Shown: positions 1-64,000 of the stretch, piece after piece
Numbering within the stretch: position 1 is the first letter of the stretch
Layout of the letters: each line of letters starts with the position of its first letter
Assembly: GCA_008632985.1 (NCBI GenBank)
Contig: QPGO01000112.1
Span: forward strand, 62,001 to 126,000
Length of the DNA stretch: 64,000 nucleotides
DNA from: Psammoneis japonica
Taxonomy: Eukaryota
Direction of reading: 5' to 3'
The notes under the pieces: generated by a model
What the model was told of the DNA's origin: nothing
The model's input: only the letters and a program-made list of their open reading frames with translations
Database searches by the model: none
Program-made: the position numbers and the translations under genes

Positions 1-812
1 TTGACTTTGCCGAATTGGCTCCTCTGGTCGTCTGTGACCCTGTGCTCGATCTGAAGCCTTTCTTTGGCTTGGACGGTTGCCGCTGCGACAACACCTGCAC
101 CCTGCTGCCGCGTTCTGCTGTGGTGTTCAGCTCCCCCAACCCAGCAGAACTAGTTGCTCAGTGCTGAGCGCTCGAAGCACTAGATTGCTGCACCGCCCAG
201 TCCACCGTGCACGGCAAACAACGCGTTACCTTCATGGAGACGGACAGGAGCAAGCATTCCACGATTGGCCTGGCTGCCATGAGAGACGCTCGAATTTCTT
301 GCAAGCAGCCTGGCATGGCCGACCAACACACTCACCACCTCACCAGACTTCTTTCACGCATGGAGCACCTTGTCAATGAGTGCGTGGACCATGCCATCCT
401 CAAGGGTGTCGCTCGTGTCAAAAAGTTTCACAACTGGAAATCCCTGGCACGGTCAGATGGCATTTTCTCCTCTCTGGCGGCTGGGCGCAATGTCTTCCTC
501 AATGCCCATCGGGACCAGGACTTCTTCCTGTCAGTGGTCACCATGGTGGGAGTCCCTCCGTCCGGCAGCCACACCATGAATGATGGGATTGTGGCGTGCT
601 TCTGCTTCCCTGCCGAAGGCATCTCCGTTGCACTCCGGCTTGGTGATGTCATCATTTTTAACCCCACCAAGTGCCACCGCATCTCCAGCAGGACAAACTC
701 AAACGACGAGTTCTTCTGCGTGTCTCTCTACCTGAAGAGTGCTGCAGTGGGCAAGAGTGACAATTCAATCCCCCTTTCTCTAGAGGAAGAGACCATTCTC
801 AGGCGACTGTGA
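1..812 (+). pseudogene. TET/JBP-like 2OG-Fe(II) dioxygenase, 3' part, with in-frame TGA at 165-167
   Basis: GRNVFLNAHRDQD (HxD), FCFPAEGISVALRLGDVIIFNPTKCH (distal His) and VSLYLK resemble the double-stranded beta-helix motifs of TET/JBP-type oxygenases. The TGA corresponds to CGA in copy B. Confidence 0.65.
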
Positions 813-1034
813 CAGTGCAAAATAACTTGCTAAATTTGCGTAAATTTGCTGACTTTCTGTGCTCAGGCGACTGTGCAGGCACCTGCCAATTTGCTGGATT
901 TGCGCAAATTTGCCGACTTTCTGTTCTTCCTCGTTCCCATTTTTCGAACCACAACTGGGGCTACGCCTTTCCAACCAATGCTGCAGTTTCGCTGAAAAAC
1001 ACCAACACACTGTGCTGCTAATTTACAGAGCACA

Positions 1035-1673
1035 CTACACGGCAAACGTTTTGCCAGATGCAGAGCTTCTCCCCCCCGACTTGGGGAGTAGACGCGATTT
1101 CTTCTTCCGATTCATGGCACCCGACATCGCCTTCCTCTTCTTCTTCTTCTTCTCCGATTCGTCCAAGTTGCATCTGCAGAGAAATTCCTCCCCGGGCATG
1201 ATTCGCTTCGTGACTGCCAAGCACCCGTCATTGTAGAACTCGCAGTTGTTGTCTGCGTGTTGGCTTGCCTTGATCTTCTTCTTGTCCTTGAACGACTCGG
1301 TGGCATCGTTCACGCAGTGCATTCCGAGGCAGAGTGGATGGGAATTCTTGTTCCCTGGACTGCTAAAATCAAGCAGTTTTGGCTCCACTGTGACGTGGCA
1401 GCCCTCACTGTCATGGATGGTGGAGCAGCACACGCTGTGGTCTTCTCCAAACTTGCTGTCGTGGTCGCACCACGAGCAGCTCCTTGTCGCACCGGGCACC
1501 CTGGGGCCCACGTAGATTCCAACCATGCTGCCTTTCTGGAACTGGCGCAAAGCAAAAAAACCAATGCCTGCACCCCTCCGTTGCGACACGCGCAGCTCAC
1601 CCACCTCCACCTCCTTGGGGCCTGCGGAGCGAATGGACTTTTCGAGGCAAAACAACGCAGGTTGAAGTGACAC
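1035..1673 (-). pseudogene. SET-domain protein with basic C-terminal tail (mutated element ORF)
   Basis: GAGIGFFALRQFQKGSMVGIYVG, then MHCVND, NNCEF, AVTKRIMPGEEFLCRCN match SET motifs (GxGLFA..I.KG..IG.Y.G; NH; GEEL..Y) with Tyr replaced by Cys. KKKKKRK..RKKKSR is NLS-like. Confidence 0.75.
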
Positions 1674-1679
1674 GGCGCC

Positions 1680-2630
1680 TCATCCAAATGTGCACACTTC
1701 TGCACTTGCTCTCTTCATGAGGTGGACCAGTGTGAGCAACCACCCCGCTTCGAAAGCCTCAACGGCGGTCTTGAACACTTTGTTGCTCTTCGGCGTCGAG
1801 TCTGGGATGCCCCTCTTGCCGACTTCCGTGCGGCACCTCCACACCCACTTGCAGTGTTCGCCGTGAGCATTCGCGACGGCTTCAGGGTCGCTCCTGATGC
1901 ACCCCAGTTCTCCCAGCACGGGGAACCAGAGGTCGGGATCACTCGGCGCATCCTTCATCAGGCACATGGACTCCTGGAAATTATCGGATTTTTCGTGCCG
2001 CAACACCCAGTCCCACAAGTCGAATGACGGATCGTTGGGGTCCGGAAATTGCTTTCCTTCTTCTTCCTCTTCCGCCGTTGCTTTCGTGACCACTTTGGCC
2101 ACGGGCTTGGCTGCCTCCTCGCTTTTGCCGCTGCAAAAAGGCAGGACCTCCGGTTTCACAAAGGTGGCCTGATCACCCACCAACTCGATCTTGCAACCGG
2201 CCTCAAGGAGCTGCTCGGCGGTGCAACCCAGCTGCTGTGCTTCATTCCAACCACAAATTTGAAAGGTTGGCTCCGGCGGCACGGCTTTCTCCCTCTTTTC
2301 AGTTTGGGACTGCACCGGCTTCTCTGACATCCTTGCGCGTTCGGACTCGACGGACACACCCTCGGCACTTCCCTCGGCACCAAGTGCAGTCATGGCAGCT
2401 GCCGCCGCGCCTTCGGCGCCCGTGAGTTCTGCCATGACTTCCGGAGCTGCCACATCCTCTGCTTTGCCAGACGCAACGATGTTGTCCTCCGCCATTCTAG
2501 CGCCGTGATGACAGAGCTGCACTGACTGCTGTGTGGTGTGCTGCTTCATTCCAGCCGTTGGCGATCCACATCCTTCTGCGCACGTAAACGTATGACACTT
2601 CGCACCAAATTCCACGTAGCGCGTCTGCAC
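1680..2630 (-). pseudogene. Unknown element ORF, in frame with and upstream of the SET ORF
   Basis: 316-codon ORF conserved in copy B (60640-61620). Separated from the SET frame by a single TGA. Confidence 0.5.
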
Positions 2631-3065
2631 CTGTCTACGTCCGTCTTCACTACTGTACGCACTACGGTGCTGCAGCGCACCCTTTCAAACCTTCATTAAT
2701 GTTTATTTTTTCCTTCCTTTTCCTTTTCTCTTCTTCTTCTATCTGGCTGGGAGGAACTGCTGGATAGCCGGTGTATTGAAGCTTTCACTAAAGGAGGCTA
2801 CTGTAAGTTCCTTTTCTTTCTAGAGAGTCTAGAGGGCGTATCTCTTTTGCGTCGTCTGGAGAGGACAAACTGAACACCTCTAGCCTCTAGAGAGAGAATG
2901 CAAGTCGACTACGTAGGTGTCGCTCATGTCAAAAACTAAAAAAAAATAGATGTCGAAGAACTCACTTTTGATCTCCTCGTGACAAACTTAGCTTACAACA
3001 TGCTACCGTGATATGACATACTCAGTAGGAGTAACCAATTCCTTGTCACTACCAGCGAACGGTAC

Positions 3066-22263: not shown

Positions 22264-22334
22264 CGCGTAGATCACTGATTTAAGTTATGCTGCGTTCCCT
22301 CTCGAAATGACCGGTAACACCTCAAGCAATACAA

Positions 22335-24430
22335 TCAACGCCATGTTTGTTGTTGCATGCCCGCCCATCGCCCATCAACTGTTGCTCTGCAAAGACGGCT
22401 CACGGACAGACTCACGAATCTTTGCTGTGGCGGCTGGCGGGCAGGCATGGTGTGGCTGTGGGCGACAAGGGCTGTCCACAGACAATGTGACTCCGAAAAC
22501 TGTCATCCCGTTGGCAGGTCATCGAAATGGGAAGAGAAGCAAAAGTGAGAGGAGCAGAAAACAAAATATATTTGTGAAATGAAGGTCACCCAGAACAGCC
22601 TGTCAGATGGGCTGCAGTCTGTCCTGTCATTGTGCAGCGCACTTTGCATGATTTGGGTTGGCTGCCCACGAGACACCTCACCACACATGTTTCTCAATTT
22701 GTTTGCACAACATCTGGGATCAGAATCATCCAAGGAGTGGAAGAAGCCAAGGTCCATGCATGCAAGGTCAGCAAATTGATTCAAGTGACCAACAAAAAAG
22801 AAGAAGAAAAAGAAGTGTGCCGGTCAAAGAGCAACCACTTGACAAGGGTCCGAGGTTGATGAGCCAAGTTGAGAACCCAGAAAGAAGACTTGCTTCTTGA
22901 ACTCTGCACAATGAGGTTCTCCCCAAGGTTGGTTGGTTGAGTGAGTTGAGAATCATTCAAGGAAAATTTGCTTGAAAAAACCACCCACACAACAAGCAAG
23001 GCCCGAGGTCAACAAATCAAGCGAGAGCAGAGTCTTCTGTCTGCACTGCTTTCAAAAACATGCTGGCTGGGGTGCCATCTGCCAGCACATGGTGGTGCAA
23101 AAGAACTTCCATTGAGGGAAGACACTGCCACATGGTTTGCTCTCTAGATGATCCTGGCATGAAAGTCTGGCCAAGCCACATGTGGGACAAGGGTGCAGGA
23201 TGAAAACAGGGCAGATGCTGGTTTTTTTTGGAGGATCATCTTGGTCCCAAAGAAACTCTCCTGCTTTTGCCACTGCCAGCACCATGATGCCTTGCTTTTG
23301 ATGGCAGCCATGCATCCAAACTTGTCCTTGAGAATTTGTGTTGCATCCAGTTTTGTGCTGCCCCCAACTCAGGCTGCTTGAAGAGGTGGGAAGCAAGGTC
23401 TGTGAGAAGCCCAATGAAGCATGAGTGCAGTGTCTCCATTGGCAGATGAGTCAAAGAGCAATTTGTCATCTTGATCCCAAAGAAACTCTCCTGCTTGTGC
23501 CACTGCCAGCACCATGATGCCTTGCTTTTGATGGCAGCGATGCATCCAAACTTGTCCTTGAGAATTTGTGTTGCATCCAGTTTTGTGCTGCCCCCAACTC
23601 AGAGGCTGCTTGAAGAGATGGGAAGCAAGGTCAAAGAGAAACCCAATGAAGAAGTGCAGTGTCTCCATTGGCAGATGAGTCAAAGAGCAACTTGTTTGCT
23701 GTGTGCAAAGCTGGCTTGTCAAAAGTGTCATTTTGATTAGAGTGTTTGAGCTGTGCCGGAGGTGTTTTCAGCAATGCTTGGTGCAACTCCTTGCATGGCT
23801 CCATTGGCTGTGGCTGTTTTGGTGAAAAACTGCTCCAATTTGACAGTGCCCTCAGCAACCTCTGGCCCAGTGGATCTGCAGAAGAGGAGTTCTGCTGCTT
23901 GTCAAGAGGCATCTCTGATGCCATGATCCATTGTGGGGGGAGCAACCAACTCAAAGAGCCAGTCGGTTGCAACTGACTCACCAGGTCACAGAGTTCAATG
24001 TGTTTTGTGTTGGCGCTGTTCTTTTGGGAAGCCATGAAGAAAAGACTTCCAGCCCACAATGTGAGAGGTGTCTCCAATGCGGCCATGACATTCACTGTGG
24101 CAAGGCAACCAACTGAAGCCACCCACTTGGTCATGATCAACTCATCCAATCATGGAATTTGCTCTTGGCTGGAAACCAAAAGACCAGGAAAGAAAAACAC
24201 AAGCAATCCTTCTCAACAAGAAAATTGCCATCCTTTTCTTGCTGACTGGAATGGCTTGAACCACATGTGCCAGAGATTGAACAAGTGTGGCTTGCTCCAG
24301 TTGTTCCCATGCCTGGAACATTGGAAGAACAAATGGGGGGTGCAGACGTGGTCATCTTTTTGTCCCATCTGGGCTGCAGGTGCACTTGCACACAGGTTTC
24401 TTGCATCTTGTGCGGAATCTTTGCGATGAA
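22335..24430. mobile_element. Highly degenerate repeat patch, probably including a non-LTR retrotransposon 3' fragment on the minus strand
   Basis: Almost no TpA, few CpG in the core, and TG/CA-rich. The minus-strand IVGWKSFLHGF near 24050 resembles the IGW..FL.G motif of LINE ORF2 tails. Confidence 0.6.
23236..23695. repeat. Tandem duplication, 2 x ~230 bp
   Basis: TCATCTTG(G/A)TCCCAAAGAAACTCTCCTGC...GGCAGATGAGTCAAAGAGCAA occurs at 23236 and 23466. Confidence 0.95.
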
Positions 24431-24891
24431 AACAAATAATGTAAAAGCATCGAAAGCCGCTGCTCTGACGTGCCGGCGAAGACGGGCTTGAATGTCAACA
24501 ACGTTGGCGTATTTCTCATGCAGCAGTTCCTTGGCATTGAGTAATTTCTGTCCATGTCTCTCTAGGTGGACCAACTAAAGTAGCCACATACCAGAACTGC
24601 AATAGATAATGCTACTATACGGTGGATGCACTTGCTTCTACTCGAGTAGCAGTGACTTCTACTAGAGGAACGGTGGATACGTCGGGATAGCTATTTAATG
24701 CATACAACACACAAGATAAAGTATGTACTTTCCTCGTTGATCAGGCCTGAAATGCAAGCTGGATTCATTTCGCGAGGCTTTTGTGCTGAGGCGAAGCGAC
24801 GTCCATGAAGCTTGGAGCTGGTTGAGACTGCTTAACGAAAATTGAATATTGTTCATATTCACGTGGTGGGGTATGATTGATGCGATTGCTG

Positions 24892-50508: not shown

Positions 50509-52118
50509 GTTCCTTGCTTCTAAGTAGAACCCTCTCTTGATCGTCGTGGCGAGCTTTCGAAATGACCGCCAGATACCTCGATTAGACTATCATCAACTTC
50601 CCTTGCTTATAAGCAATGCATGCACCTGCACTGTCAGATGCGTTTGCGATTATTAACAACAGAAGAAGGAATGTTCACCTGTTGGCAGGTGCAAGTTGTT
50701 GGCACTTGGCAATTGGCCCGCCAAGCAAGAAAACAGGTGCAGTGTAGTCTGTCCTGCGTTCACCGAATTTGACAGGAAACCCCAGCACCATGCGGTAACA
50801 CGTGGTAGTTATTGTACAGGACGATTCCGCATGTACATTGTGTACCACAAGTGCAGTAGAAAAGCGCTGTACAGTATCTTGACCTTCTTGCTGACTGCAA
50901 CATTATCATCGACGATCAATTCGACTAATCTCAAAACCGCAGCTCACACCAGGACTAAAGTGAGGGGTTGAACAAGTTTGAAGCCCTCACCATCTGCAGC
51001 AACTCTGAGAATGAATTTACTTGAGGTTGGCATGCTCAAGAAAAAGGCAGGCACCACAACAGCCATGAACTTTTTTTGCAGTGCTGGTGACGAATGTCTC
51101 TCACAATGTCTCAATGCACAGCTGAGTTTCAGCCAAAAGTTCAAGCTGTTCAAGCAGGCCAGCCCCAAAAATGTGTTTGCAGCCTTGAAGAATGCCAAGA
51201 AAGGGGTGGGGGGGGGCAACAGTGTGCCTGAAGAACTGACAAAATGCACTGTGAACAAAAACTGAGACAGAAGATCAGCAGCGCCGAAAACGCGCCGGAG
51301 CACAGCCAGCTGTGGACTTTTTTTTTGACAACTGAGCTTCACGTTGTCAGTTGAGGCCACCAGAGATGTCTGATGCAGCCTCATAAAAACAATCAGCCCC
51401 TCTGCACAATTGCAAGCTGCCCAGCAATTGTGGCATGTTGTCAGCTGCAATTTTTTTGGAAAACAAACTTGGCAAGTCATCAAGCATGACAAAGGTTGGC
51501 ATCAAAATGCCAACAAGGAGTGCAGACATGACTGCTGAGACTGAGCCACACATTCAAGAAAAAAAGTGACAGCAAAAGAATTTTGGGTGTGTTCTTGGCC
51601 TGGTGAGATGCCAATGCTGCCCCAGCCATTTGCCGTTGTGTGCGCACTTCCCAAAGGCACACCTCAATGCTGGTGGCATGACAGAACATCGCAGGTTGCC
51701 ACAGGGCTTGCAATGGGGTGTGCCAAGATGATGTGTTGTGCGCCCCATGTGCTGCTTGATTGGGTGACAGCAGTTGCTGCACCTGGCAGGTGGGGCTTGG
51801 TGATGATTGTTGAAAGCAAAAACACCAAATTTGCAGCTTTTTTTCATCCAGGCTTTGTGAAAAGTTTGGTCTCTAAAATGAGTCAACAAGGACAGCAAAC
51901 AATGGCACCTGTCCAAGCATCTCACATTGGCTTTTTGACTTTTCTTGATGAACTGGGTTTTCACCAAATTGCCTGACTTGCCAATGGGTTGTCATGTGGT
52001 CATTTGAGCTAGAAGACGAGGCAGAGCTGCAAAATGGTCTCCTCATGTGTGCATCTGCTTTTGCATTTGCATCAACAGCAGGGTGCAAACTTTTCCAAAT
52101 TTACTCTGTGTGTTGGTG

Positions 52119-52266
52119 CTTGGGTTCTGCAACTTTTGCAACCCACAACCTTGGGCCCTGCGACTTTTGCAACAACCCGTGATCTTGGGTTCTGTGACTT
52201 TTGCAACCCACAATCTTCTTGGACCCAGTGACTTTTGCAGCTGTCCACAACCTTGGGTCCTGTGAT
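52119..52266. repeat. Degenerate minisatellite, ~4.5 units of 31-34 bp
   Basis: Units resemble CTTGGGTTCTG(C/T)(A/G)ACTTTTGCAACCCACAA. Confidence 0.85.
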
Positions 52267-52399
52267 GGTTCTGTGCAAGGCTGTTTTGCTCAACACTTGT
52301 GTGCACACTGCACCCAGAATTGCCTGTCTTGATCATCACACAAAGAGCAACAACAACTGGCACACTCCACCATGCAGAAGCCACAGTGTGCTGCGCCAT

Positions 52400-54200
52400 C
52401 ACAGAGACTGGAGGTGAGGAGCAGGTTGGTGAACAACATGCACAAGGAGGTTGATGATTGGATGAGCCATTTGCACACATGCTGTCCAGCAAGGAGGCAC
52501 CAAGTGTGGTCATGGCAGAGGCAGCCAAGCATCTGGGGGGCAACATCTCCCGCTTTGAATGGGGAGAGAGAGCAGTGGGTCACAGAAATGTTGGCTTGGA
52601 ATGCTGCAACTGCCAAACATGGGTTCAATGACAAATTCTTGATTGGCGCTGCTGCTGCTCAAGTGTTTCTCCATTGTGTTGAACAAAATGACAGAGTGCT
52701 GTTGTTGCTCTTCTTGTGCACAACTGCGGCACTGTTGGAAGGTGCACTGCAGTGTCTTGGACTCCTCAACTTGGCAAAACAGCAAGTGGGTGTTTGCTGT
52801 GTGGTGTCATTTCAACATGTTGATTTGAGCTCATTGGGAATTGCACACAAGGGCTGCAGTCTGGACTCAGTGTGGAGATGTGCCCATCCAGTTTGAGCAA
52901 CTGAGAAACAAATGACAGAGTGCCAAATGGGCAGCAAGACAGGCAACAAACAACCAGAAGCAAGTGGAGAGCTGACACTGGGTTTCCCAGGTGAAGCTCA
53001 AGTCCCAATCATGCACACAACAAAGAGAATGATGCTCTTTTGTGCCCCACTCTTGATGAGCACTGTGGTCACAGCCTTGTTGCACCTCTTTGGCATGATC
53101 CTCTTGATGAAGAAAAGCACAAGATTTCTTGTGACAAAAGCAAATGCTGCAGCCCAAAAAGAAAAAGCTGGTTTTGTCTGTCTGGAAGAAAAGGGGCAAT
53201 GGAGTGGCCTTTGATGCAGGATGTTCACAAGTCATCTGCACAGGGTTGGCTTGTGTTGATGTGCAACTCCACCAAGTGGCAGGTGGAAGACACAGAGAGG
53301 CTTGTTGGAAGATTGCAAAGCAGCGTGTGATTGAAACACAAACACATTGGATGGAGGGGCTCAGGACAGTGATGACAGGCACAAAGCAGCCCTGGGAGCA
53401 TGTCTTGTCAATGTGCAGAGATGGGTCACAAGGCTGCTGCTTTGACTGATGCAGCATCAAGACTGAAATGAGGAAATTGATTTGGGGCATTGGCCAGCAC
53501 TCTTGCCACAATGTTGACTGCTGCCAGGAACTGCTTGGCAAAAGTGCTCCTGTCCATGGCACACCTCAATTTGGGTGTCCAGACCTGCTGCTGAAAATGC
53601 ATGGAGAAATGCTCTGCCAGCAGACAGTGTTTTGTGTGGTGATGTGCAGACAGCCAGTCATGGAAGAAGGCAACATTGTGGCATCAGACTTGAGTGGTGT
53701 TCCTGAGATGTCTTTCGAAAGGAGTGGGCAGTGACGAGACATGCAAACAGTGGCTGAGCCAGAGCACAAAGATCCAGTTGCCAGTGCTGCCTTGCCACAA
53801 CACCTGCGCATTTAGCACGAGAGTGCAGACAAGCTTGCCTCAATTGCTGGATGCAAAATTGAGGGTTCTGAGTCACCCCAACATCAGGGCAAGCTTGCCA
53901 TTGATGTTGCTCTGTCAACCTGTTTGTTGTGCATTGCTGTGCTGGCACTGTTCTTGCAGCAAAAAGAGGGGAAAAGGTTGGCTGCTGTGAGCTGCAACAA
54001 TGAAGGAAATTTTGGGAAGAGCCTGTTGCTGCAAGTGCTTGCATCTGTTGTCTCCAGTTTTGTCAGATGACGCTTGCTCCTCCAAGCTCTCATTTTGGCC
54101 TGTCATTGCTGACAAACTGTGCAGCAGCCATGCAAATTGTTCATTCCCCAGCTGCACTCATCAAAGATGTCTGTGCTTGAATGATTCTTGCATGGCACTG
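52400..54200 (+). mobile_element. Possible non-LTR retrotransposon ORF2 relic (post-RT region and RNase H-like start)
   Basis: Fragments THWMEGLRTVM, GNIVASDLSG..MSFE (cf. RNase H IVASDGS..SFGW) and IADKLC (cf. N..AD.LA) appear in the expected order but are very degraded. Confidence 0.4.
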
Positions 54201-54999
54201 TTGTGGACTCTCTGGCTGGGTGTTCATTTGTTCGTTGCAGATCTCACCTTTCTTGTGTTTGCTTGGCCTCCGGCACCTTGCTCAGGGTTTCCAACCCCCT
54301 TCTAGTCTAACTGGACAGTGATGACTGCTGGTGCAAAACATCTAGAGCCACTGGTCTCTGTGCCCACCCCTCAAGCTCCTTGCACCGGGCCAACTCCTCT
54401 TCAGAGCTTCAGTGCCTCTCAAGGAGTCATGTTCAATGTTCAATGTTGGCACTTCTGCTCCCTCCAAGAAGCAGAGGAAAAAAAGAGCACCAGCACAGTG
54501 CTGTCATGCAGTTTGCAGATGACTCTTTGGCAACTGTTGTCTGTGACAAAAAGAAGCCTTCTTCATGTGTACAATCAAGCAGTCTGTGGTCAAGTCTTCA
54601 GCAACTCAAGTTGGGCCAGCCATCAGCACCTGGCTCAGCTCACACCACCACCCTTCTGATCCAACAGCAGTGCAAAACATGCAGCCACCAGCTCCTGCTG
54701 AGCATCTGGGGTTGGCAAGAACCCTTTTAGAATGTCTGCCAAGAAGTCACCAGATGTGCCAGCCATCTAAATTGCACACACAGAATGACCCCTCTGGATT
54801 GCATTGATGGAAAACAAACAGATCATCAAACACATTTGTGACCTTGCTCGCTGGATCAACAAAACACTTCATGCAAGTGTGACGAGTCCTTTCCATCACA
54901 ACCTTGCTGCTGTGCAGACCCTTGATCAGGTCCACAACCCAGTCATTGACTGCAGACAAAGTCAAACTTAAAGAGCTCTGTGTTGTGGCAGGTTCACTT

Positions 55000-56200
55000 C
55001 CCTTCAGAAGGTCTTGCTGCTTGCTGCAATGATGTCATGCTGGAACAACCATGACAACTTCAAAGTGTCACAGATGACACCTTTGTCATCTCACACCAAT
55101 CCAAATTGACCGCCTTTTTTCCAGTGTGTCAACAGGTGCCACAATTCACAACAAGGGGACCACACAAACCATGCTGGTCCATGCCACAGGTGGGACAACT
55201 TGCTGACAACAGCCCATGCAGATGGTTTGCACCTTCCTTGTCTGGGACAAACTCCAAATTGTTGCCTTGTGATCCCGTGATTGTTTCTTCATCATGCTTG
55301 TCACTGCACTCATCTTGATGGTCTTCCCTGCAACAACATCCCATGCCTTGTGTCCAGGTCTTGTGTCCTTCCATGCCACATTGTTTGACATCAGTCTCAA
55401 CTTGCCTGGATTGTCAAACATGGAGAGCATTGGTGCAGTGGAGGGCATGTGCTTGTGCCCTTCTTGACTCTGCATCACTTCAATTTTGCACACCTTTTTC
55501 ACAAGGTTGTGCCTCTCTGTCCACAGCTTGTGGGGCTCTTCCTCAAACTCACTTGCATGCCTTTTGTTCAATCTGCCAACAATGCTCCAGACAACTTTTC
55601 CTTTCCTTTCAAACTCAATCATCAACAAACCCATTCCAAGGAATTTTCTTCTCCAGGCTTGGCTGGCTGGGCAACAGAGGATGTGGTCATGGTGGTCTTC
55701 CATGGGACACTCACAATTCAAGAAATGGTGGGGCCTGACTCAGTTGCACCAACGAACCATCTTTTTGGCAGGAAGCAGTTTGTGGATGAGCTTGATGGTG
55801 GACATGTGTTGCTTGGAGCTCTGGGAAATTAGCACTGCATGAACCTTCCAATTGATCATGTGTGGGCAACTTTTTCAGTCCATTGACTTCATTCCTGGAT
55901 GTGTTCTAGAAGTGGAGGAGCCATGGCAGCATGTTGCACTGAAGGCTTGAGACCCAAAGTGATTGTGCTGTCACAGAAAGGGAAAGGCAACTTTGGCAAT
56001 TTGGAAATGGAAATGCATGAGCAGTGTTGTGTTCACATTGACCCTGATGCTGGCCTCTGTGAGTTTGTTGGTGCACACATTCACTCTGGTGTTGAGAGGC
56101 AATGACTCTGCTGGGGTGGAACGGAATCAGCGGCCCTTCACCCAGGTGTTTGAAGGTGATGAAACTGGAGGGTCATTGTCTGACAGTGACTCAATGTCTG
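55000..56200 (-). mobile_element. Non-LTR retrotransposon ORF2 C-terminal relic
   Basis: INWKVHAVL...TIKLIHKLLP...NCECPMEDHHDHILCCPASQAWRRKF...LWTERHN matches the C..C...E..DH...C zinc-binding tail of LINE ORF2. Confidence 0.6.
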
Positions 56201-56399
56201 CATGTGTTTGAAATGTCTGGTTCACCACATCTCAATCTGGCAACAGAGCATCTGCACCATGGCATTGGAGCCAACAGTCTTGTTCTTTGAATGCAGCAGT
56301 CATTGGATCCAACAATGGCAGGGTGGCAAATGAGTCAAGAAGCAGCACATGCACAAGCCCCTTGTTGTTGCAATGTGCTTCAACTCCTTGGCACTTTGT

Positions 56400-59300
56400 G
56401 ATGTGACAAAATTTCAGAAGGCAGAAAAGAAATCTTGATGCCAAAAAGACACCATGCATTTCTGCCCAGAGCACCACTCCACAGTGTCAACAACAGCTGT
56501 CATCAGCATTCCTTCCAACAATGTGCTGTCAGCCTGGCTGACTCATCTTTGTCTGGCCATTCTCTGTCAGTTTTCTGTTGCAAACCATTTGTCCCTTCAT
56601 GTGACTGTCTCGCTTCTCCATTTGGAACATCAGTGCAACCATGGCCTTGGTTGTCTCAGTTGGAGTCATGTCTTTGATCAATTGTGGTGCAAAACACACC
56701 CTGTTCTTGTGGAGTTGCTCAATCTCATTCTCTGAGGCGTTGTGCCTTCTCCGGCCAAATGCTTTTGGGTCTTCATGCAGCACCAGATGCTGCTGGGTGA
56801 GGGAAGTGCTCTTTCCTGATTGGAGTCAGTTGTCAATTTCACACATGAATCATGCTGATGCTGCTCCTGTTTCCATGTTGTGCTCAATGTCACCCCCTGG
56901 GGTTGGGGCTTGTGTTCATTCTCAAACAATGGCAGTGCTCAAGCTTGTTTTGTTCTTGCTCTGCTTTTGCATCTGCCACTCCTGACATCAAACTTTCTTT
57001 GCTCTGTGTTCATGTGTCTTCTCATTGTGGGATGCACCGCACTTTGTGCCACTCCTTGTCACTCTGCCTGGCATTTTTCTTAACTCTTCCACTGGTTTCT
57101 CTTTTCCACTTTTCTTGTCTGGGAACACTTCCTCTTTCTGATTTTTTGTCTGACACTCTGTGGTCTTCTTGTTCTCTTTGGCTTCTTCTTGGCTCTTGGG
57201 CTGTCAATTGAGGCTGGATCTTTTGCTGCTGGCATCTCATTTGCTTCACCATGTTGATCATTTGAGTCAGGTTTGTCTTCACAGTCTTTGTCTTCAGACT
57301 CAGCCACACAGCTGGCATTGTCTTGCTTGTTGTTGTTTTTGTCCATGCTTTCATCTTTGCTGTCACTTAAATTGTTGTCCACTCCTGTGGTCCAATCAGC
57401 ATTGCACACAGGCTGTCTCCATGTTTGCTCACAAATTTGAAGTCTTTGATGCCTTGCACCATTGCCATCTTCTTCTTGACCCCTTGCACACATGCATTGG
57501 TCAGGGGGATGGCATGGTGCACTTGCAGGGACTCAGTGGCTTGCTTGTGTGCAGGTTCACAAAGCAGTGGCTGCCCTTGGGAACATTGAAACGTGGTCAC
57601 AGACACATGTTGTCAATGCCATGTGTGTCCACCATGGTGTTTGTCAAGTTGATTTCAATGTGAGACAGGAGGACAAATGAACCAAAGGCAAAATTGAAGT
57701 GCTTGTTGCAGCCAAGGTTCCTTCATTGCATGATGGTGTGCAGACTGTGTGTGTTGAAAATTCCTTTCTTCTGTGGGCACATGTTCACCATCATGGTGTT
57801 CTTGAAAACATGGCATGCTTGCACATCAACTTGGGTGTCGCCTTGTGCAGCAGGTGATGTGCAGTGGCTGGAGATTGCTCCTTGATGGTCACAGTGGGTG
57901 CTCCACTCCACTTCAGGAACATGGTCACCAGTGTTTGCAGACACCAGTTCTGAGCTTGTGCCATCTGCGACTTCCTTCAGCATGTCTTTGAACTCAGAAC
58001 CACACTCAACAAAGTCAATCTTGAACAAAGCTGTGTTGCATTGCCATGTCCAGTGCATTGCACACACACTGACATGCTTCTTGGACCTCAGTCTTACACA
58101 CTCAATTGTCACATGTCATTGTCTTGTCAGTTGAGTGCAGCATTTAAACTCCTCTGCATGCTTCCATGATGTCAGTGCAGATGATCACACCTTCTTTTGG
58201 TTTCTTGCATGCATCTCAGGTGAAGTTGCTGCAATTTTGCTCCTCTCATGGGATTGTTGTGGGTGTTTGGCATTTTAACGCATTGATGAGTGTGTCCCCC
58301 AAATGGCCGCTGTCCTGTCCTCCATGTCTTCAGGTGCGATGGACAAGTTCTTCACCTGGTTTGATCACAAAAAAAGCTTTGAATCTCTCACACTGGGAAT
58401 TCCAGTCTGAGCACTTGCTTGGCATTTGCCACCTCCCTCTTGGCATGGCCTGTGGAGTTCTGCTCCACTGTCAGAACTGTGATTCTGCGCACACTCCTCC
58501 ACTTCTTGTTGCTGTCCTTTTTTCATTTTTTTCTTCTTTGATGGCATGCTTCTTGCGTGTGACTTGCTTTCTTAGAGAGATGTTTTGCATGGTCAAAGAA
58601 CTTCTGGCTTGATGTGAAGGTGTGCAGTCTGATGTCATTGACTTGGAACACTGCAACTTGCTTGCCAGTCTTCTTGTCCAACAGCTGGAACTTGTCCAGC
58701 ACCACTCGGTTGTCATGTGTGATGAAGCACTTGTTCTTCACACCCTTCAAACTGAGGATGTTTGCTGTTGCATTGTGCAATCCAAGCTTCACATCCCCCC
58801 ATTCAGGCATGGTGCAGTTTTCACCATCTGGGACATCCATTCCTGCATTCTTGAACCAGTTGTAAAATGCAGCGTTGTTTCAATGTTTGCAGTCTGGAGA
58901 GTTGTGCCCCAGTTCACTGCAACAGCGGCACACTGCAGCATTGCTCTGGTTTCTCTTCTGGACATGGCTCTGGTCCTTGGAATTCTTGGACCTCTTGCTC
59001 TCATTTTCAACATTGTTGTTCTTGTTGTTTGTGCACTCATTGTTCCCCATGCTGTGACTTTTGTGAGGGCAATTGTCTTTTGGATGATTCAGCAGCACAT
59101 CCATTGCCTTGTCAATGGTCTTTGGATGCATGTGCTTGCCCAGGCTGCAGTCTCGGATGAAGCTCTTTTTTAAGCTCTTGCAGCAGCAATTGTTGCTGTT
59201 CTCCATGAACAGAAATGTCATGCTGCATGTGTCAAAAAGCTGCATCCTTCAGCACTTGCTTTTCCATTGTGGCGCCATCCTTGCACACCTTGGCATTGGA

Positions 59301-60040
59301 AATGACTCCATCTGGCACTCTGTTCCCCTGTGACTTTCACTTGCAGCATCTTGCTGATTCTTGAATCTCAACAGGCAGCAATTTGGCAACTCATTCTTTT
59401 GTTGTTTCATGTCCAGCACACTCTGCAGGGACTTGACAAGTGTGTGAAACGGGTGTGGAGCTCTCATTGAGTGTCAAGTGCAAGAGACTGGATCAGCTTC
59501 AACAGCTTGATTGGGTTGTTTCTGACACACAAGCAACTGGGATCACCTTGCAGCCACTCTCTGCTTCATCAGCTTGGTGCAGTGATCATCTAAGATCTGG
59601 GTGAGTGTGGCAGTCTTGTTCTCTTTGAACTGCTTTGCTTTGTTGCCACACTGGCGTGGCTCCGCTTTGTGCTGGTGCTCCAGTTTTTCATCCTCTTGTT
59701 GCTTCTTTTCCAGCACAGTTTGGCAGTCTTATGCTGTCACAAGTGGTGTTGTCATCATTGGCATGCTTGAGGTTGGTTTCTCAGATCTAAAGTCCTTGTG
59801 TTTCACATTTTCTGGAGATCTCACCAAATGCACGCCTTGGGTGCACTCTTTCTGCATGTGGCAATGGATGATCTTCTCCTTGACATCTTTGCATGTTGCA
59901 CTGCAAGTGTTGCTGTTCAGTGATGAAGGATGGAACTTTGTCTCAGGCTGAAAGTGCTTCTCAATGTTGGTCTTCTTTGTTGGGTCAGAGGTTCTCAGGG
60001 CCTTGGTTGTCAGATCTGCCACTTCCTTGGCCACTCATTG
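56400..60040 (-). mobile_element. Ty1/copia (CoDi-like) LTR retrotransposon relic: gag, zinc knuckle, protease region, integrase, truncated RT
   Basis: In copia order on the minus strand: gag ATCKDVKEKII...FLFMENS...DCSLGKHMHPKTIDKAMDVLLNH; knuckle CRCCSELGHNSPDC (CX2CX4HX4C); ANILSL...ITHD; integrase SEFKDML...DHVPEVE; RT EIEQLH...KAMVALMFQMEKRDSHMKG. Confidence 0.9.
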
Positions 60041-60639
60041 TGCAGGTGCTCAGCAATGACTTGGCTGCAGGTGGAGTGGTGTTGCCAAGCACCAAACATG
60101 GTGCTTGTGACTCTTTGGAGTGAACATTGAACCAGCAAGTCAATGTTGCCAAAAGGGATCTCTTGATGCAAGCTTCAAACTTGTGGTGCAACAGGTGCCC
60201 AGTGGCACTGATCCAATGACATTGTGCAAACCAAATGGGCCAAATGATTCACTCCAAAGAGAGGGACAAGCAGAAAGGTGAAAAAGATCGGTGACGATGA
60301 GTTTTCAATTGCAAAAAGAAGAGTCGCCAAATCTTTCCCATGTCAGGAGCAACAGCATCTTCGCTCTCTTCAACAAATCTGGGTTCCTAAAATTTCCCAG
60401 CATCTTCCAGATGTTCCAACAGAGATCGGAACACTTTCATCTTCTGCACAGTGTTGGCTTGACTTTGATGAGGGGCAAGGGCAGTCTTGCAGAGCTGCGT
60501 GTGTCGCAGTCGTGAGATGAATGACACACCGGCTGTCCAGCAGTTCCTCCCAGCCAGACAGAAGAAGAAGAGAAAAGGAAAAGGAAGGAAAAAACAAACA
60601 TTGATGAAGGTTTGAAAGGGTGCGCTGCAGCACCGTAGT

Positions 60640-62250
60640 GTGCACAGCAGTGAAGACGGACGTAGACAGGTGCAGACACGCTGCATGGAATTTGGTGCGA
60701 AGTGTCACACGTTTACGTGCGCAGAAGGATGTGGATCGCCAACGGCTGGAACAAAGCAGCACACCACACAGCAGTCAGTGCAGCTCTGTCATCACGGCGC
60801 TAGAATGGCGGAGGACAACATCGTTGTGTCTGGCAAAGCAGAGGATGCAGCAGCTCTGGAAGTCATGGCAGAACTCACGGGCACCGAAGGTGCGGTGGCA
60901 GCTGCCATGACTGCACTTGGCACCGAGGGAAGTGCCGAGGGTGTGTCCGTTGAGTCCGAACGCGCAAGGATGTCGGAGAAGCCGGCGCAGTCCCAAACTG
61001 AAAAGAGGGAGAAAGCCGTGCTGCCGGAGCCAACCTTTCAAATTTGTGGTTGGAATGAAGCACAGCAGCTGGGTTGCACCGCCGAGCAGCTCCTTGAGGC
61101 CAGTTGCAAGATCGAGTTGGTGGGTGATCAGGCCACCTTTGTGAAACCGGAGGTCCTGCCTTTTTGCAGCGGCAAAAGTGAGGAGGCAGCCAAGCCCGCG
61201 GCCAAAGTGGTCGCGAAAGCAACGGCGGAAGAGGAAGAAGAAGGAAAGCAATTTCCGGACCCCAACGATCCGTCATTCGACTTGTGGGACTGGGTGTTGC
61301 GGCACGAAAAATCCAATAATTTCCAGGAGTCCATGTGCCTGATGAAGGATGCACTGAATGATCCCGACCTCTGGTTCCCCGCGCTGGGAGAACTGGGGTG
61401 CATCAGGAGCGACCCTGAAGCCATCGCGAATGCTCACGGCGAACACTGCAAGTGGGTGTGGAGGCACCGCACGGAAGTCGGCGAGAGGGGCATCCCAGAC
61501 TCAACGCCGAAGAGCAACAAAGTGTTCAAGACCGCCGTCGAGGCTTTCGAAGCGGGGTGGTCACTCGCACTGGTCTGCCTCGTGAAGAGAGCAAGTGCAG
61601 AAGTGTGCACATTTGGATGAGGCGCCGTGTCACTTCAACCTGCATTGTTTTGCCTCGAAAAGTCCATTCGCTCTGCAGGCTCCAAGGAGGTGGAGGTGGG
61701 CGAGCTGCGCGCATCGCAACGGAGGGGCGCAGGCATTGGTTTTTTTGATTTGCGCCAGTTCCAGAAAGGCAGCACGGTTGGAATCTACGTGGGCCCCAGG
61801 GTGCCCGGTACGACGAGGAGCTGCTCGTGGTGCGACCACGACAGCAAGTTTGGAGAAGACCACAGCGTGTGCTGCTCCACCATCCGTGACAGCGAGGGCT
61901 GCTGCGTCACAGTGGAGCCAAAACCGCTTGATTTTAGCGGTCCAGGGAACAAGAATTCCCATCCACTCTACCTCGGAATGCACTGCGTGAACGATGCCAC
62001 CAAGTCGTTCAAGGACAAGAAGAAGATCAAGGCAAGCCAACACACGGACAACAACTGCGAGTTCTACAACGACGGGTGCTTGGCAGTCACGAAGCGAATC
62101 ATGCCCAGGGAGGAATTTCTCTGCAGATGCAACTTGGACGAATCGGAGAAGAAGAAGAAGAAGAGGAAGGTGACGTCGGGTGCCATGAATCGGAAGAAGA
62201 AATCGCGTCTGCTCCCCAAGTCGGGGGGGAGAAGCTCTGCATCTGGCTGA
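60640..62250 (+). pseudogene. Unknown-domain ORF plus SET-domain ORF, same frame, interrupted by TGA at 61618-61620
   Basis: Homologous to 1035-2630. GAGIGFF...KGSTVGIYVG, HPLYLGMHCVND and REEFLCRCN are present. Confidence 0.7.
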
Positions 62251-62487
62251 ACGTTTGCCGTGTAGTGTGCTCTGTAAATTAGCAGCACAGTGTGTTGGTG
62301 TTTTTCAGCAAAACTGTGGCATTGGTTGGAAAGGCGTAGCCCCAGTTGTGGTTCGAAAAATGGGAACGAGGAAGAACAGAAAGTCGGCAAATTTGCGCAA
62401 ATCTGGCAAATTGGCAGGTGCCTGCACAGTCGCCTGAGTGCAGAAAGTCAGCAAATTTATGCAAATTTAGCAAGTTATTTTGCACTG

Positions 62488-63933
62488 TCACAGTCGCCTG
62501 AGAATGGTCTCTTCCTCTAGAGAAAGGGGGATTGAATTGTTGCTCTTGCCCACTGCAGCACTCTTCAGGCAGAGAGACACGCAGAAGAACTCGTCATTTG
62601 AGTTTGTCCTGCTGGAGATGCAGTGGCACTTGGTGGGGTTAAAAATGATGACATCACCAAGCCGGAGTGCAACGGAGATGCCTTCGGCAGGGAAGCAGAA
62701 GTGCGCCACAATCCCGTCATTCATGGTGTGGCTGCCGGACGGAGGGACTCCCACCACAGTGACCACTGACAGGAAGAAGTCCTGGTCCCGATGGGCGTTG
62801 AGGAAGACATTGCGCCCAGCCGCCAGAGAGGAGAAAATGCCATCTGACCGCACCAGGGATTTCCAGTTGTGAAACTTTTTGACACGAGCAATGCCCTTGA
62901 GGATGGCATGGTCCACGCACTCATTGACAAGGTGCTCCATGCGTGAAAGAAGTCTGGTGAGGTGGTGAGTGTGTTGGTCGGCTGTGCCAGGCTGCTTGCA
63001 AGAAATTCGAGCGTCTCTCGTGGCAGCCAGGCCAATCATGGAATGCTTGCTCCTGTCCGTCTCCATGAAGGTAACGTGTTGTTTGCCGCGCACGGTGGAC
63101 TGGGCGGTGCAGCATTCTAGTGCTTCGAGCGCTCGGCACTGAGCAACTGGTTCTGCTGGGTTGGGGGAGCTGAACACCACAGCAGAATGCGGCAGCAGGG
63201 TGCAGGTGTTGTCGCAGCGGCAACCGTCCAAGCCAAAGAAAGGCTTCAGATTGAGCACAGGGTCACAGACGACCAGAGGAGCCAATTCGGCAAAGTCAAT
63301 GTCAGCAAGACAAGGTGGTGCAGGCTGAGTGTAGTCGCCGTTGTGAACCAGAGTGCGGTTGGCTACGCAGCGCATGGAGAGACTCTCAGTGGCGCACGGT
63401 GCGAGTGGAACAAGGCGAGCAATCTTGGATGTTTTTGCACTGGCACGGCTGCGGATTCGCCTGCGGCTGCGGTGGGCCTTGCGAAGTGGCGGTTGAGCCC
63501 TCAACACATTCTCGCATGTCCTGGTGCGCATTGACGATGCGGTGTTCGCAGAGAACGTGTGTGCAAACTTGCCGGCAAATGTTCCGCTGCTTGACACTGT
63601 CACTGTCATCTCAACAGTGCCCAAAGCAGAACTCTTTCAACAGGGACCGGCGGACTCTAGGGGAGTGGGGTCAAAACCTGATCGAGAGATGTGTCTGCTT
63701 TCCGTTGCCTCAAGAGCACCCAAAGCAAAACTCTGTTGACAGGGACCGGCAGACTCCAGGGGAGTGGGGTCGAGACCCAATCGCAAGAAGCATTTGCTTG
63801 TTGTCGGGCTGCGAGCTGCATGTCCCAAACCCCCACACTGTTGAGACCGGCTGTAACTCGATCGCGACAAGTGCTTGTCGTTGGTGGGACGACGCAGCGA
63901 GGCACGAGGCAGTTGCAACATGGTGTGTCTCAA
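62488..63933 (-). pseudogene. TET/JBP-like 2OG-Fe(II) dioxygenase with N-terminal extension, one in-frame TGA at 63637-63639
   Basis: ORFs 62488-63624 and 63637-63933 share a frame. NAHRDQD...GDVIIFNPTKCHCIS gives the HxD...H triad. Confidence 0.65.
63620..63800. repeat. Two imperfect ~99-bp tandem units encoding a 33-aa repeat on the minus strand
   Basis: CCCAAAGCA.AACTCT.T..ACAGGGACCGGC.GACTC.AGGGGAGTGGGGTC occurs at about 63620 and 63719. The peptide G(L/F)DPTPLESAGPC occurs twice. Confidence 0.85.
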
Positions 63934-64000
63934 TTTGAAATGTGTTTCAAAATGTGATGACGGAAGTGTTGTCGCGTTGTTTTTGTCTCCGCGGAGGGAG

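What the first reader, a model, noticed from the sequence alone, without database searches (positions are those of the whole stretch)
50940..60524. Surviving TpA sites reveal a 5'-TAY target motif
Seen: the few TpA left in the old TE cluster are mostly YTAR (CTAA 51874, CTAG 52010, TTAG 53812, CTAG/CTAA ~54303, CTAG 54343, TTAA ~54969, 57081, 57368, 58145, 59171; positions approximate). YTAR is the only context in which neither strand reads TAY. Also, 8 of the 9 polarised changes at the element end are TAY to TGY on one strand. Inference: an enzyme-like specificity, equivalent to RTA to RCA. Two candidate chemistries: (i) DNA adenine deamination by a TadA/ADAT-like enzyme (TadA edits UACG, and engineered derivatives favour TA contexts); (ii) thymine oxidation, since 5-formyluracil mispairs with G and yields T-to-C.
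Basis: partly seen in the sequence, partly recalled or inferred. Interest (0 to 1): 0.85.

Follow-up and report, generated by a model that had tools for sequence, protein, structure and literature searches.

The report
TpA-erasing hypermutation in diatom repeats
Silent repeat blocks in this diatom chromosome have had nearly every TA step rewritten to TG or CA by a local mutation process that prefers TA followed by C or T, a genome-defence-like signature so far reported only once, in an unrelated alga.

Summary
In 50940-60524 only 28 TA remain where about 369 are expected from genic density. Of these, 21 are YTAR, against 20% YTAR among genic TA (p=8e-10). All ten listed sites and the "8 of 9" count were verified.

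The cause is mutational and acts in place. Two inverted copies of a repeat (1-2776 and 63299-60524) differ at 111 positions, and 105 of these lie at TA or CG steps that became TG/CA. They are 99.9% identical in purine/pyrimidine space.

At TA sites with one predicted target strand, 10 of 10 polarised changes go TAY>TGY, which is RTA>RCA on the other strand. CpG decay shows no such rule (10:17).

Copy A keeps 11 TA in its last 185 bp beside a gene. Copy B, embedded in the repeat block, lost 9 of them, about 1000 times the background rate.

The host is a diatom. The closest precedent is a 2026 preprint on TpA hypermutation in Bigelowiella natans. The text I read gives no 3' context and does not mention diatoms.

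The chemistry stays open: adenine deamination or thymine modification. "TE cluster" is unproven.

The parts
50940..60524 (.). Old hypermutated block. TA (28 left) and CG (63 left) are both nearly exhausted, and CA/TG are about doubled. 50940-56200 shows unique-level contig depth. 56200-60400 shows raised depth, consistent with a repeat.
   Evidence: composition, survivors; depth about 64-70 up to 55000, then 250-1100 over 56200-60400; left boundary: regular TA stops at 50926, CG at 50938
60525..64000 (-). Young repeat copy B. 60524-63299 is homologous to copy A, and the repeat runs on to the window end. TA is depleted (25 left), CG is still near normal, GC 0.55. It belongs to a family with high summed contig depth.
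   Evidence: 96.0% identity to 1-2774, inverted; 99.9% in R/Y space; summed contig depth 1800-4200 against about 64 over genes
1..2590 (+). Young repeat copy A, hypermutated body: 20 TA left (8 YTAR, 12 half-sites, 0 RTAY), CG near normal.
2591..2776 (+). Unmutated edge of copy A beside the TBCC gene. It keeps 11 TA and 10 CG, where copy B lost 9 TA and 3 CG. This marks the boundary of the mutating domain inside the repeat.
   Evidence: 12 of 12 derived states in B, p=5e-4
22331..24436 (.). Second old block. It is TA-free from 22331. CG is depleted only from about 22524, so 22331-22523 is TA-free but CpG-rich. It contains a 231-bp tandem duplication (23236-23695).

Best explanation
These blocks carry the footprint of a local, enzyme-like hypermutation that turns TpA into TpG or CpA in silenced repeat DNA of a diatom. 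It is the same kind of process just reported in Bigelowiella natans.

Shown here:
- The changes are transitions at TA made in place, after the copies were inserted.
- Both DNA strands are hit about equally.
- The rate is of order 1000 times the background.
- The target is 5'-TAY-3', read as A>G, which is equivalent to T>C in 5'-RTA-3' on the other strand. RTAY sites have two targets and go first. YTAY/RTAR sites have one target, go next, and always change in the predicted direction. YTAR sites have no target and persist.
- The process works inside the same domains in which CpG decays. That CpG decay is symmetric and is presumably 5-methylcytosine deamination. The domain can end inside a repeat copy next to an active gene.

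Inferred, not shown: the agent is a polynucleotide adenine deaminase acting on DNA (A>inosine>G), directed to methylated or heterochromatic foreign and repeat DNA as a genome defence. Activity may be hindered when the +1 base is the cytosine of a CpG, which would be methylated if these domains carry 5mC.
For: 1. Composition. TA O/E is 0.04-0.05 and CA/TG 1.7-2.2 in 52001-60000. AA (1.22-1.23) and AG (0.98-1.05) are unchanged there. The total of Y-R steps is conserved, 237 per kb in genic DNA and 242 per kb in the old block. So the losses are transitions within YR steps.

2. Pair of copies. Of 111 differing positions in 2776, there are 57 CG<>TG/CA sites, 14 TA<>TG/CA sites, 17 adjacent TG<>CA doubles (34 positions), 3 other transitions and 3 transversions. 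Identity is 99.9% in purine/pyrimidine space.

3. Direction. All 8 half-site TA differences in the pair follow TAY>TGY or RTA>RCA. Two more sites (61076, 61106), polarised by a diverged copy seen in run X2, also follow it, giving 10 of 10 (p=0.002). CG decay at half-sites runs 10:17. Fisher p=0.003 for TA against CG.

4. Budget in the half-site class, per kb, genic to old block. Rule products rise from 41.2 to 74.3 and anti-rule products from 32.9 to 46.4. TA falls from 18.9 to 0.6 and CG from 32.2 to 3.3. If CG loss is split evenly, the 18.3 lost TA all appear as rule products (18.65) and none as anti-rule (-0.95). Fisher p=4e-4.

5. Graded survival: 0.28 for YTAR, 0.033 for half-sites, 0.009 for RTAY.

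6. In-place action and domain edge. In 2591-2776 copy A keeps 11 TA and copy B keeps 2. All 12 derived states (9 TA, 3 CG) are in B (p=5e-4). Ordinary divergence is 6 of 2776 positions.

7. No strand bias among RTGY and RCAY products.

8. Independent contigs of run X1 reproduce 46001-57453 with 5 differences, all five at YR steps.

9. Precedent. Mutation-accumulation lines of B. natans show 230 of 231 mutations in two viral inserts as A>G or T>C, with all of the GC-biased ones at TpA. The rate is about 1000-fold raised, and the genome has 124 TpA-poor, CpA+TpG-rich clusters (10.64898/2026.01.13.699255).
Against: - The rule is not absolute. Two of the 14 TA differences in the pair are at YTAR sites (151, 2697). 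The site at 62249 and the possibly allelic differences at 52011 and 54014 are also at YTAR sites.
- Nine of the 17 TG<>CA doubles sit in half-site flanks. The strict rule forbids opposite products there. A uniform CpG-loss model predicts only about 3 CG-derived doubles in total, my estimate from the counts. So either CpG mutability is very uneven or anti-rule events occur.
- The budget assumes that the ancestral block had genic composition. This cannot be checked.
- Copies A and B are not independent samples, and everything rests on one 64-kb window.
- No deaminase gene, base-modification data or methylation data could be examined.
- The TadA-like context TACG is the most resistant TAY context.
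- The repeats could not be shown to be transposons or viral.
Confidence: 0.6

Rival explanations
1. The footprint and motif are the same, but the modified base is the thymine. A TET/JBP-type dioxygenase marks T in 5'-RTA-3' of silenced repeats as 5hmU or 5fU. Mispairing with G, or faulty repair, then gives T>C.
For: Sequence cannot tell A>G in TAY from T>C in RTA, because both strands are hit equally. In dinoflagellates a TET/JBP homologue makes 5hmU, which is enriched on transposons and silences them. Older work cited in that paper found T replaced preferentially in TA and TC dinucleotides (PMC11572971, passages read).
Against: The spectrum is almost purely transitions: 3 transversions among 111 differing positions, and YR steps are conserved. 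From recall, untested here, oxidised thymines and their repair also give transversions. No mutational footprint of 5hmU is reported in the passages I read. Whether diatoms carry such an enzyme or 5hmU was not testable, and no diatom appears in the 12 listed papers.
Confidence: 0.2
2. Collateral damage of repair. Frequent 5mC deamination in methylated repeats triggers patch repair by an error-prone polymerase (Pol eta type, WA>WG hotspot), which mutates nearby TA.
For: TA loss and CpG decay share the same domains and the same edge. TA>TG is the commonest Pol eta-type error (recalled from the somatic hypermutation literature, not tested here).
Against: The WA motif includes AA. Here AA O/E is 1.22-1.23 and AG 0.98-1.05 in blocks where TA is 0.04-0.05. 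A strict 3' pyrimidine rule is not a described Pol eta feature (recall). In B. natans the hypermutated regions show no accompanying C>T.
Confidence: 0.06
3. RNA-level A-to-I editing (ADAR-like, or ADAT acting on double-stranded repeat RNA), fixed by reverse transcription when retroelements copy themselves.
For: T/U at -1 is the usual preference of RNA adenosine deaminases (stated in the preprint's discussion).
Against: Changes arose after insertion. One copy lost 9 of 11 TA in a segment that its twin keeps. Possibly allelic differences occur in a block with unique-level depth. Both strands are hit equally. No reverse transcriptase or any other domain was found in the blocks. ADAR's favoured triplet UAG (recall) is among the survivors here.
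Confidence: 0.03
4. The pattern is not a mutation process. It is either selection against TA in these sequences or a sequencing or base-calling artefact at modified bases.
For: TA is mildly under-represented everywhere in the window (O/E 0.5-0.65 in genes). Modified bases can mislead some base-callers (recall).
Against: The blocks have no detectable coding capacity. Copy-to-copy differences are discrete TA>TG/CA changes with a directional rule. A separate contig set at depth about 64 reproduces the old block with 5 differences in 11.4 kb.
Confidence: 0.03

Closest known systems
TpA hypermutation of integrated viral DNA in Bigelowiella natans (Mettrop et al., bioRxiv 10.64898/2026.01.13.699255; abstract, sections 11-12 and passages read; supplements closed)
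   Same: The changes are exclusively TpA>TpG/CpA transitions, locally confined, at about 1000-fold the background rate. They leave TpA-poor, CpA+TpG-rich clusters in non-host-like DNA. An adenine deaminase (ADAT2-like) is proposed there.
   Different: The host here is a diatom (stramenopile), not a chlorarachniophyte (rhizarian). The targets are repeats of unknown nature, not shown to be viral. A 3' pyrimidine rule, relative resistance of TACG and co-located CpG decay are seen here. The words 'context', 'trinucleotide' and 'diatom' do not occur in that text. There is no mutation-accumulation evidence here.
Repeat-induced point mutation (RIP) of ascomycete fungi
   Same: Dinucleotide-specific transitions made in place on both strands of repeated DNA, destroying it. 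The domains have edges that do not coincide exactly with the repeat.
   Different: RIP makes TpA from CpA (C>T). This process removes TpA (A>G or T>C), the opposite direction. Dependence on duplication or on a sexual cycle is unknown here.
5-methylcytosine deamination (CpG decay) in methylated diatom transposons (CpG methylation of P. tricornutum LTR elements: PMC2806351, passages)
   Same: It occurs in the same blocks: CG O/E 0.09-0.10, and 57 CG<>TG/CA differences between the two copies.
   Different: It is symmetric with respect to flanks (10:17) and slower than TA loss in the same 185-bp segment (3 of 10 CG against 9 of 11 TA). It cannot remove TA.
TadA/ADAT tRNA adenosine deaminases and ADAR (motifs recalled, not tested here)
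   Same: Adenine with a 5' T/U is the preferred substrate. TadA's native site is UAC(G).
   Different: Those enzymes act on RNA. ADAR prefers a 3' G, which is the resistant context here. TACG is the least efficient TAY context here.
5hmU made by TET/JBP enzymes on dinoflagellate transposons (PMC11572971, passages)
   Same: A base modification at T in TA (and TC) steps, enriched on repeats and linked to silencing, in another SAR lineage.
   Different: It is an epigenetic mark. No TA-erasing mutational footprint is reported in the passages read. Its presence in diatoms is unknown.

Membership tests
Bigelowiella-type TpA hypermutation of foreign DNA | Mutations are A>G / T>C transitions confined to TpA | tested here: met
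   There are 14 TA<>TG/CA differences and only 3 other transitions among 111 differing positions. YR steps are conserved, and AA and AG are unchanged.
Bigelowiella-type TpA hypermutation of foreign DNA | Long-term footprint: clustered TpA depletion with CpA+TpG enrichment | tested here: met
   Four blocks have TA O/E 0.04-0.39 and CA/TG 1.3-2.2.
Bigelowiella-type TpA hypermutation of foreign DNA | Rate about 1000-fold above the rest of the genome | tested here: inconclusive
   Inferred from one 185-bp segment. Nine of 11 TA were lost, against 0.0011 ordinary changes per site per copy. No direct rate measurement was possible.
Bigelowiella-type TpA hypermutation of foreign DNA | Targets are of viral or other foreign origin | tested here: inconclusive
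   The repeat nature is supported by summed contig depth. None of 94 ORFs gave a significant Pfam match, and two long ORFs had no homologues.
Fungal RIP | C>T at CpA, raising TpA and lowering CpA/TpG | tested here: not met
   TpA is nearly absent and CpA/TpG are doubled. Polarised changes run TA>TG/CA.
5mC-driven CpG decay | CG>TG/CA transitions, symmetric, in the same DNA | tested here: met
   There are 57 CG<>TG/CA differences, running 10:17 with respect to flanks. CG O/E is 0.09-0.10 in the old blocks. Methylation itself is not testable here.
ADAR-type editing fixed by retrotransposition | Changes made before insertion, on the transcript strand, with 3' G favoured | tested here: not met
   Loss occurred after insertion in one copy only. 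There is no strand bias. TAG and TAA are the survivors.
TadA/ADAT-like DNA adenine deaminase | A deaminase-fold gene present and active on DNA | not testable with these tools
   No genome is held for this window, and the ORFs of at least 200 aa scanned in the window show no deaminase domain.
TadA/ADAT-like DNA adenine deaminase | Target context T-A-C(G) | tested here: inconclusive
   TAY is the target. TAT is lost at least as fast as TAC, and TACG is the most resistant TAY context (11 of 84 against 19 of 547).
Pol eta WA>WG repair signature | A mutated after either T or A (WA) | tested here: not met
   AA O/E is 1.22-1.23 where TA is 0.04-0.05.

The most novel reading that the evidence does not exclude
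Stramenopiles and rhizarians share a 'reverse RIP' genome defence. In this reading a DNA adenine deaminase is recruited to methylated, silenced repeat and viral DNA. It reads a three-base site (5'-TAY) and is hindered when the adjacent cytosine is methylated. It erases TpA about 1000 times faster than background until only YTAR sites are left. The enzyme would be a natural, context-defined A-to-G DNA editor, and the TAY/YTAR signature would allow it to be traced across eukaryote genomes.
Probability: 0.3. Interest if true: 0.9.

Novelty: new member of a known kind. Interest (0 to 1): 0.72.

Why it matters
RIP-like mutational genome defences are documented mainly in fungi, and adenine- or thymine-directed ones had no example until a 2026 preprint on one chlorarachniophyte.

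Finding the same TpA-erasing footprint in a diatom moves it from a curiosity of one alga towards something that may be widespread in the SAR supergroup.

The three-base rule (TAY hit, YTAR spared, TACG slow) is a concrete biochemical fingerprint. It can be used in several ways:
- to screen candidate deaminases or dioxygenases;
- to re-read the Bigelowiella mutation table;
- to date and detect silenced foreign DNA in algal genomes;
- to avoid false gene calls, since TA-free DNA lacks TAA and TAG stops and shows long spurious ORFs.

If the agent is a DNA adenine deaminase, it would be a natural counterpart of engineered adenine base editors.

Tried and rejected
- **Whole genome.** None is held, so no genome-wide census or proteome search was possible.
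- **Earlier scan notes.** There was nothing for this genome or sequence. Word searches returned only unrelated phage and prokaryote notes.
- **Nature of the blocks.** Pfam on 94 stop-to-stop ORFs of at least 90 aa gave nothing below E=0.003, and nothing reached a curated cut-off. The 382-aa ORF 62491-63636(-) had no hit among 7571 candidates. The 334-aa ORF 60616-61617(+) had no hit in 1.84 billion representatives. So 'transposon' and 'viral' both remain unproven.
- **Deeper homology by purine/pyrimidine recoding of the window against itself.** Only the known pair and small tandem repeats appeared. There was no link between the old blocks and the young repeat.
- **Tandem duplication 23236-23695.** Its differences are ordinary and uninformative.
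- **Strand bias among RTGY and RCAY products.** None was usable for telling A from T as the mutated base.
- **Sequencing runs.** No RNA holder is listed. X2, which behaves like spliced transcript contigs, has no cover on 50801-60400. Only 40 of 559 'other letters' rows were shown, so family-wide polarisation was not possible.
- **Relatives.** 80 metagenome loci around SF3B1 relatives (698 kb) contained no 1-kb window with TA O/E below 0.2 and CA/TG above 1.4. These are mostly genic contigs, so this says little.
- **Literature.** Searches found no report of TpA-specific repeat mutation in diatoms. Two diatom transposon papers hold none of the terms hypermutation, dinucleotide, deamination or 'point mutation' (passages only); TpA was searched only in the second, with no occurrence. 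The Bigelowiella supplements (Table S2, the mutation list) are closed and may already contain the 3' context.
- **Rejected readings.** RIP (wrong direction), Pol eta-type repair (AA untouched), RNA editing plus retro-copying (post-insertion, both strands), and artefact (independent contigs agree).
Full report
**What the window is.** The 64-kb window is a gene-dense stretch of a eukaryotic chromosome. It carries the housekeeping genes TBCC, ATG2, a Sec7 GEF, SF3B1, UBR1 and an ABC1 kinase. The SF3B1 ORF finds its best named relatives in diatoms at 70-73% identity: Nitzschia, Cylindrotheca, Pseudo-nitzschia, Chaetoceros and Epithemia. The best unnamed relative is 77% identical. I therefore treat the host as a diatom. 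No whole genome is held for it.

**The observation.** TA and CG counts per 500 bp and dinucleotide observed/expected values show four abnormal blocks.
- 50940-60524 and 22331-24436 have lost both TA and CG. In 52001-60000 TA O/E is 0.04-0.05, CG 0.09-0.10 and CA/TG 1.7-2.2.
- 1-2590 and 60525-64000 have lost TA but keep near-normal CG and have GC 0.55.
- In 50940-60524 only 28 TA remain, where genic density (38.5 per kb) predicts about 369. Only 63 CG remain against about 573 predicted.

Of the 28 TA, 21 are YTAR, 6 are half-sites (YTAY or RTAR) and 1 is RTAY. Among 1769 genic TA the counts are 361, 869 and 539 (binomial p=8.3e-10).

- Contexts are very unequally depleted: density relative to genes is 0.28, 0.033 and 0.009.
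- The survivors are not explained as new TA. The local CA+TG pool from which new TA would arise is only 23% YxxR (p=1.1e-8).
- In the young repeat, 7 of the 8 YTAR sites of copy A are shared with copy B. They therefore predate the split of the copies.

**It is mutation, made in place.** 1-2774 is an inverted copy of 63299-60526 at 96.0% identity. The two copies differ at 111 of 2776 aligned positions:

| Class of difference | Count |
|---|---|
| CG<>TG/CA | 57 |
| TA<>TG/CA | 14 |
| Adjacent TG<>CA doubles | 17 (34 positions) |
| Other transitions | 3 |
| Transversions | 3 |

When the window is recoded to purines and pyrimidines the pair is 99.9% identical. The copies are thus very young, and 105 of their 111 differences sit at the two palindromic Y-R steps.

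The total number of Y-R steps per kb is the same in genes (237) and in the old block (242). AA and AG are unchanged. TA and CG have therefore been converted to TG/CA by transitions and by nothing else.

Contigs of run X1 at depth about 64 reproduce 46001-57453 with five differences, all at Y-R steps. A base-calling artefact is therefore unlikely.

**The TAY rule.** A TA step can be read on either strand. If the target is A in 5'-TAY, then RTAY has two targets, YTAY/RTAR has one, and YTAR has none. Four independent lines fit this.
1. The graded survival given above.
2. Direction. At half-sites the rule predicts YTAY>YTGY and RTAR>RCAR only. All 8 half-site TA differences in the pair obey this (729, 1089, 1330, 2617, 2651, 2704, 2740, 2765). 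So do two further sites polarised by a diverged copy seen in run X2 (61076, 61106). That makes 10 of 10 (p=0.002).
3. CpG decay at half-sites shows no such direction (10 rule-like, 17 opposite). Fisher p=0.003 for TA against CG.
4. A tetranucleotide budget for the half-site class, per kb, comparing genes with the old block:

| Half-site class | Genes | Old block |
|---|---|---|
| Rule products (YTGY+RCAR) | 41.2 | 74.3 |
| Opposite products (YCAY+RTGR) | 32.9 | 46.4 |
| TA | 18.9 | 0.6 |
| CG | 32.2 | 3.3 |

With CG loss split evenly, the 18.3 lost TA are all recovered as rule products (18.65) and none as opposite products (-0.95). Fisher p=4e-4.

The rule is a preference, not a law.
- From the near-equilibrium ratios of TA to CA+TG, loss at half-sites is at least 8 times faster than at YTAR sites, and at RTAY about 23 times faster. 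This is my arithmetic.
- YTAR sites do change. They account for 2 of the 14 pair differences (151, 2697). The site at 62249 and the possibly allelic differences at 52011 and 54014 are further cases.
- Nine of the 17 TG<>CA doubles have half-site flanks. That is more than the roughly 3 CG-derived doubles a uniform CpG-loss model predicts. This remains unexplained.

**Domain behaviour and rate.** In the last 185 bp of the repeat (2591-2776), copy A lies beside the TBCC gene and keeps 11 TA and 10 CG. Copy B abuts the old block and keeps 2 TA and 7 CG. All 12 derived states are in B (p=5e-4). In the body of the repeat, CG loss is about even between the two copies (25 in A, 32 in B over the whole alignment, of which 3 of B's lie in the edge).

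TA loss and CpG decay thus share one domain, whose edge can lie inside a repeat copy. This fits a chromatin- or methylation-defined target better than pure homology.

With ordinary divergence at 6 of 2776 positions (0.0011 per site per copy), losing 9 of 11 TA implies a rate of order 1000 times background. That is several times faster than CpG decay in the same segment.

Products at RTAY-class sites show no marked strand bias. This argues against transcript-level editing.

**Secondary context effects (weaker).**
- In the young, CpG-rich copies TACG is the most resistant TAY context: 11 of 84 against 19 of 547 for the other TAYN (Fisher p=8e-4). The two copies are not independent.
- The two TA that copy B retains in the edge are both CTACG. 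The two edge TACG sites that did lose TA had also lost the CpG.
- Among YTAR survivors the +2 base is A in 60% of readings against 33% in genes (p=8e-5).

**What the blocks are.** Summed contig depth rises from about 64 over the genes to 250-1100 over 56200-60400 and to 1800-4200 over 60400-64000, while 50800-55000 stays near 64-70. The tool warns that this figure is not a copy number. It is consistent with a multi-copy young family lying next to an old remnant that is now unique.

None of 94 ORFs in the blocks matched Pfam significantly, and two long ORFs have no homologues. 'Transposon' is therefore plausible but unproven. The long ORFs are expected by chance, because TA-free DNA lacks TAA and TAG stops.

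**Comparison with what is known.** The closest precedent is a 2026 preprint on Bigelowiella natans. I read its abstract, sections 11-12 and passages.
- In mutation-accumulation lines, 230 of 231 mutations in an integrated giant-virus region and a virophage region were A>G or T>C. All the GC-biased ones were at TpA.
- The rate was about 1000-fold elevated, and the genome contains 124 TpA-poor, CpA+TpG-rich clusters.
- The authors propose an ADAT2-like DNA adenine deaminase.
- Their text contains no mention of 3' context, trinucleotides or diatoms.

Seven literature searches found no report of the phenomenon in diatoms.

The present case is therefore a second, phylogenetically distant example. 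It adds a three-base target rule, a shared domain with CpG decay, and an in-repeat domain edge.

It is the mirror image of fungal RIP, which creates TpA. It is not the Pol eta WA signature, because AA is untouched. It does not fit ADAR, whose favoured UAG context (recalled) survives here.

**Mechanism.** What is shown is a local, context-specific, two-strand, post-insertion TA>TG/CA process. Which base is attacked is not shown.
- Adenine deamination (A>I>G in TAY) is my preferred reading. The spectrum is purely transitions, and -1 T is the usual determinant for nucleic-acid adenine deaminases.
- Thymine modification in RTA is a serious rival. Dinoflagellates mark transposons with TET/JBP-made 5hmU, historically found at TA and TC (PMC11572971, passages).

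I put about 0.85 on the process and motif as described. I put 0.6 on the full statement including deamination-type enzymology directed at silenced DNA, and about 0.2 on the thymine route.

**Limits.**
- The evidence comes from one window and one pair of copies, and those copies are not independent.
- The budget test assumes an ancestral composition.
- No methylation, modification or proteome data were available.
- The output of the read-laying step was truncated.

Noticed in passing
window 1-2774 and 60526-63299: The two young repeat copies are inverted relative to each other and bracket the whole 57.7-kb gene-bearing segment. Both run off the window ends, so the full element is longer than 3.5 kb.
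   Followed up: partly
window 60636, 60663, 60714 and other TACG sites in 1-2590 and 60525-64000: TA followed by CG is the most resistant TAY context in the CpG-rich young copies (11 of 84 against 19 of 547). The two edge TACG sites that lost TA had also lost the CpG. A methylated +1 cytosine may hinder the process.
   Followed up: partly
window 22331-22523: A 193-bp strip at the left edge of the second old block has no TA but 13 CG. TA loss reaches about 190 bp further than CpG loss, either as spreading into the flank or as a younger addition.
   Followed up: no
YTAR survivors in 50940-60524, 22331-24436 and 60525-63995: The base two positions 3' of the surviving TA is A in 60% of 62 strand readings against 33% in genes (p=8e-5). 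The most resistant sites look like T-Y-T-A-R-A.
   Followed up: partly
window 51485-51486, 52011, 53735, 54014: The only five differences between the window and the run X1 contig over 46001-57453 are all at Y-R steps: one CA/TG double, two TA/TG at YTAR sites and one CG/TG. They may be allelic and would suggest the process is still running.
   Followed up: partly
window 46001-50679: Run X2 behaves like spliced transcript contigs. It skips 76-330-nt stretches within the ABC1 kinase region (47963-48055, 48263-48338, 48704-48778, 49715-50041), so these genes have short introns.
   Followed up: no
window 60616-61617(+), 62491-63636(-), 1683-2684(-): ORFs of 334-382 aa in the TA-free repeat have no homologues. 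TA-free DNA lacks TAA and TAG stops, so such ORFs are expected by chance and could be miscalled as genes.
   Followed up: yes
window 1038-1679(-): Weak, sub-threshold SET-domain match (E=0.014, 16 bits against a cut-off of 22.4) in an ORF of the young repeat. It is probably noise.
   Followed up: no
window 23236-23466 and 23466-23695: A 231-bp tandem duplication lies inside the second old block at 93.6% identity. Its differences are ordinary ones, including transversions and indels.
   Followed up: yes
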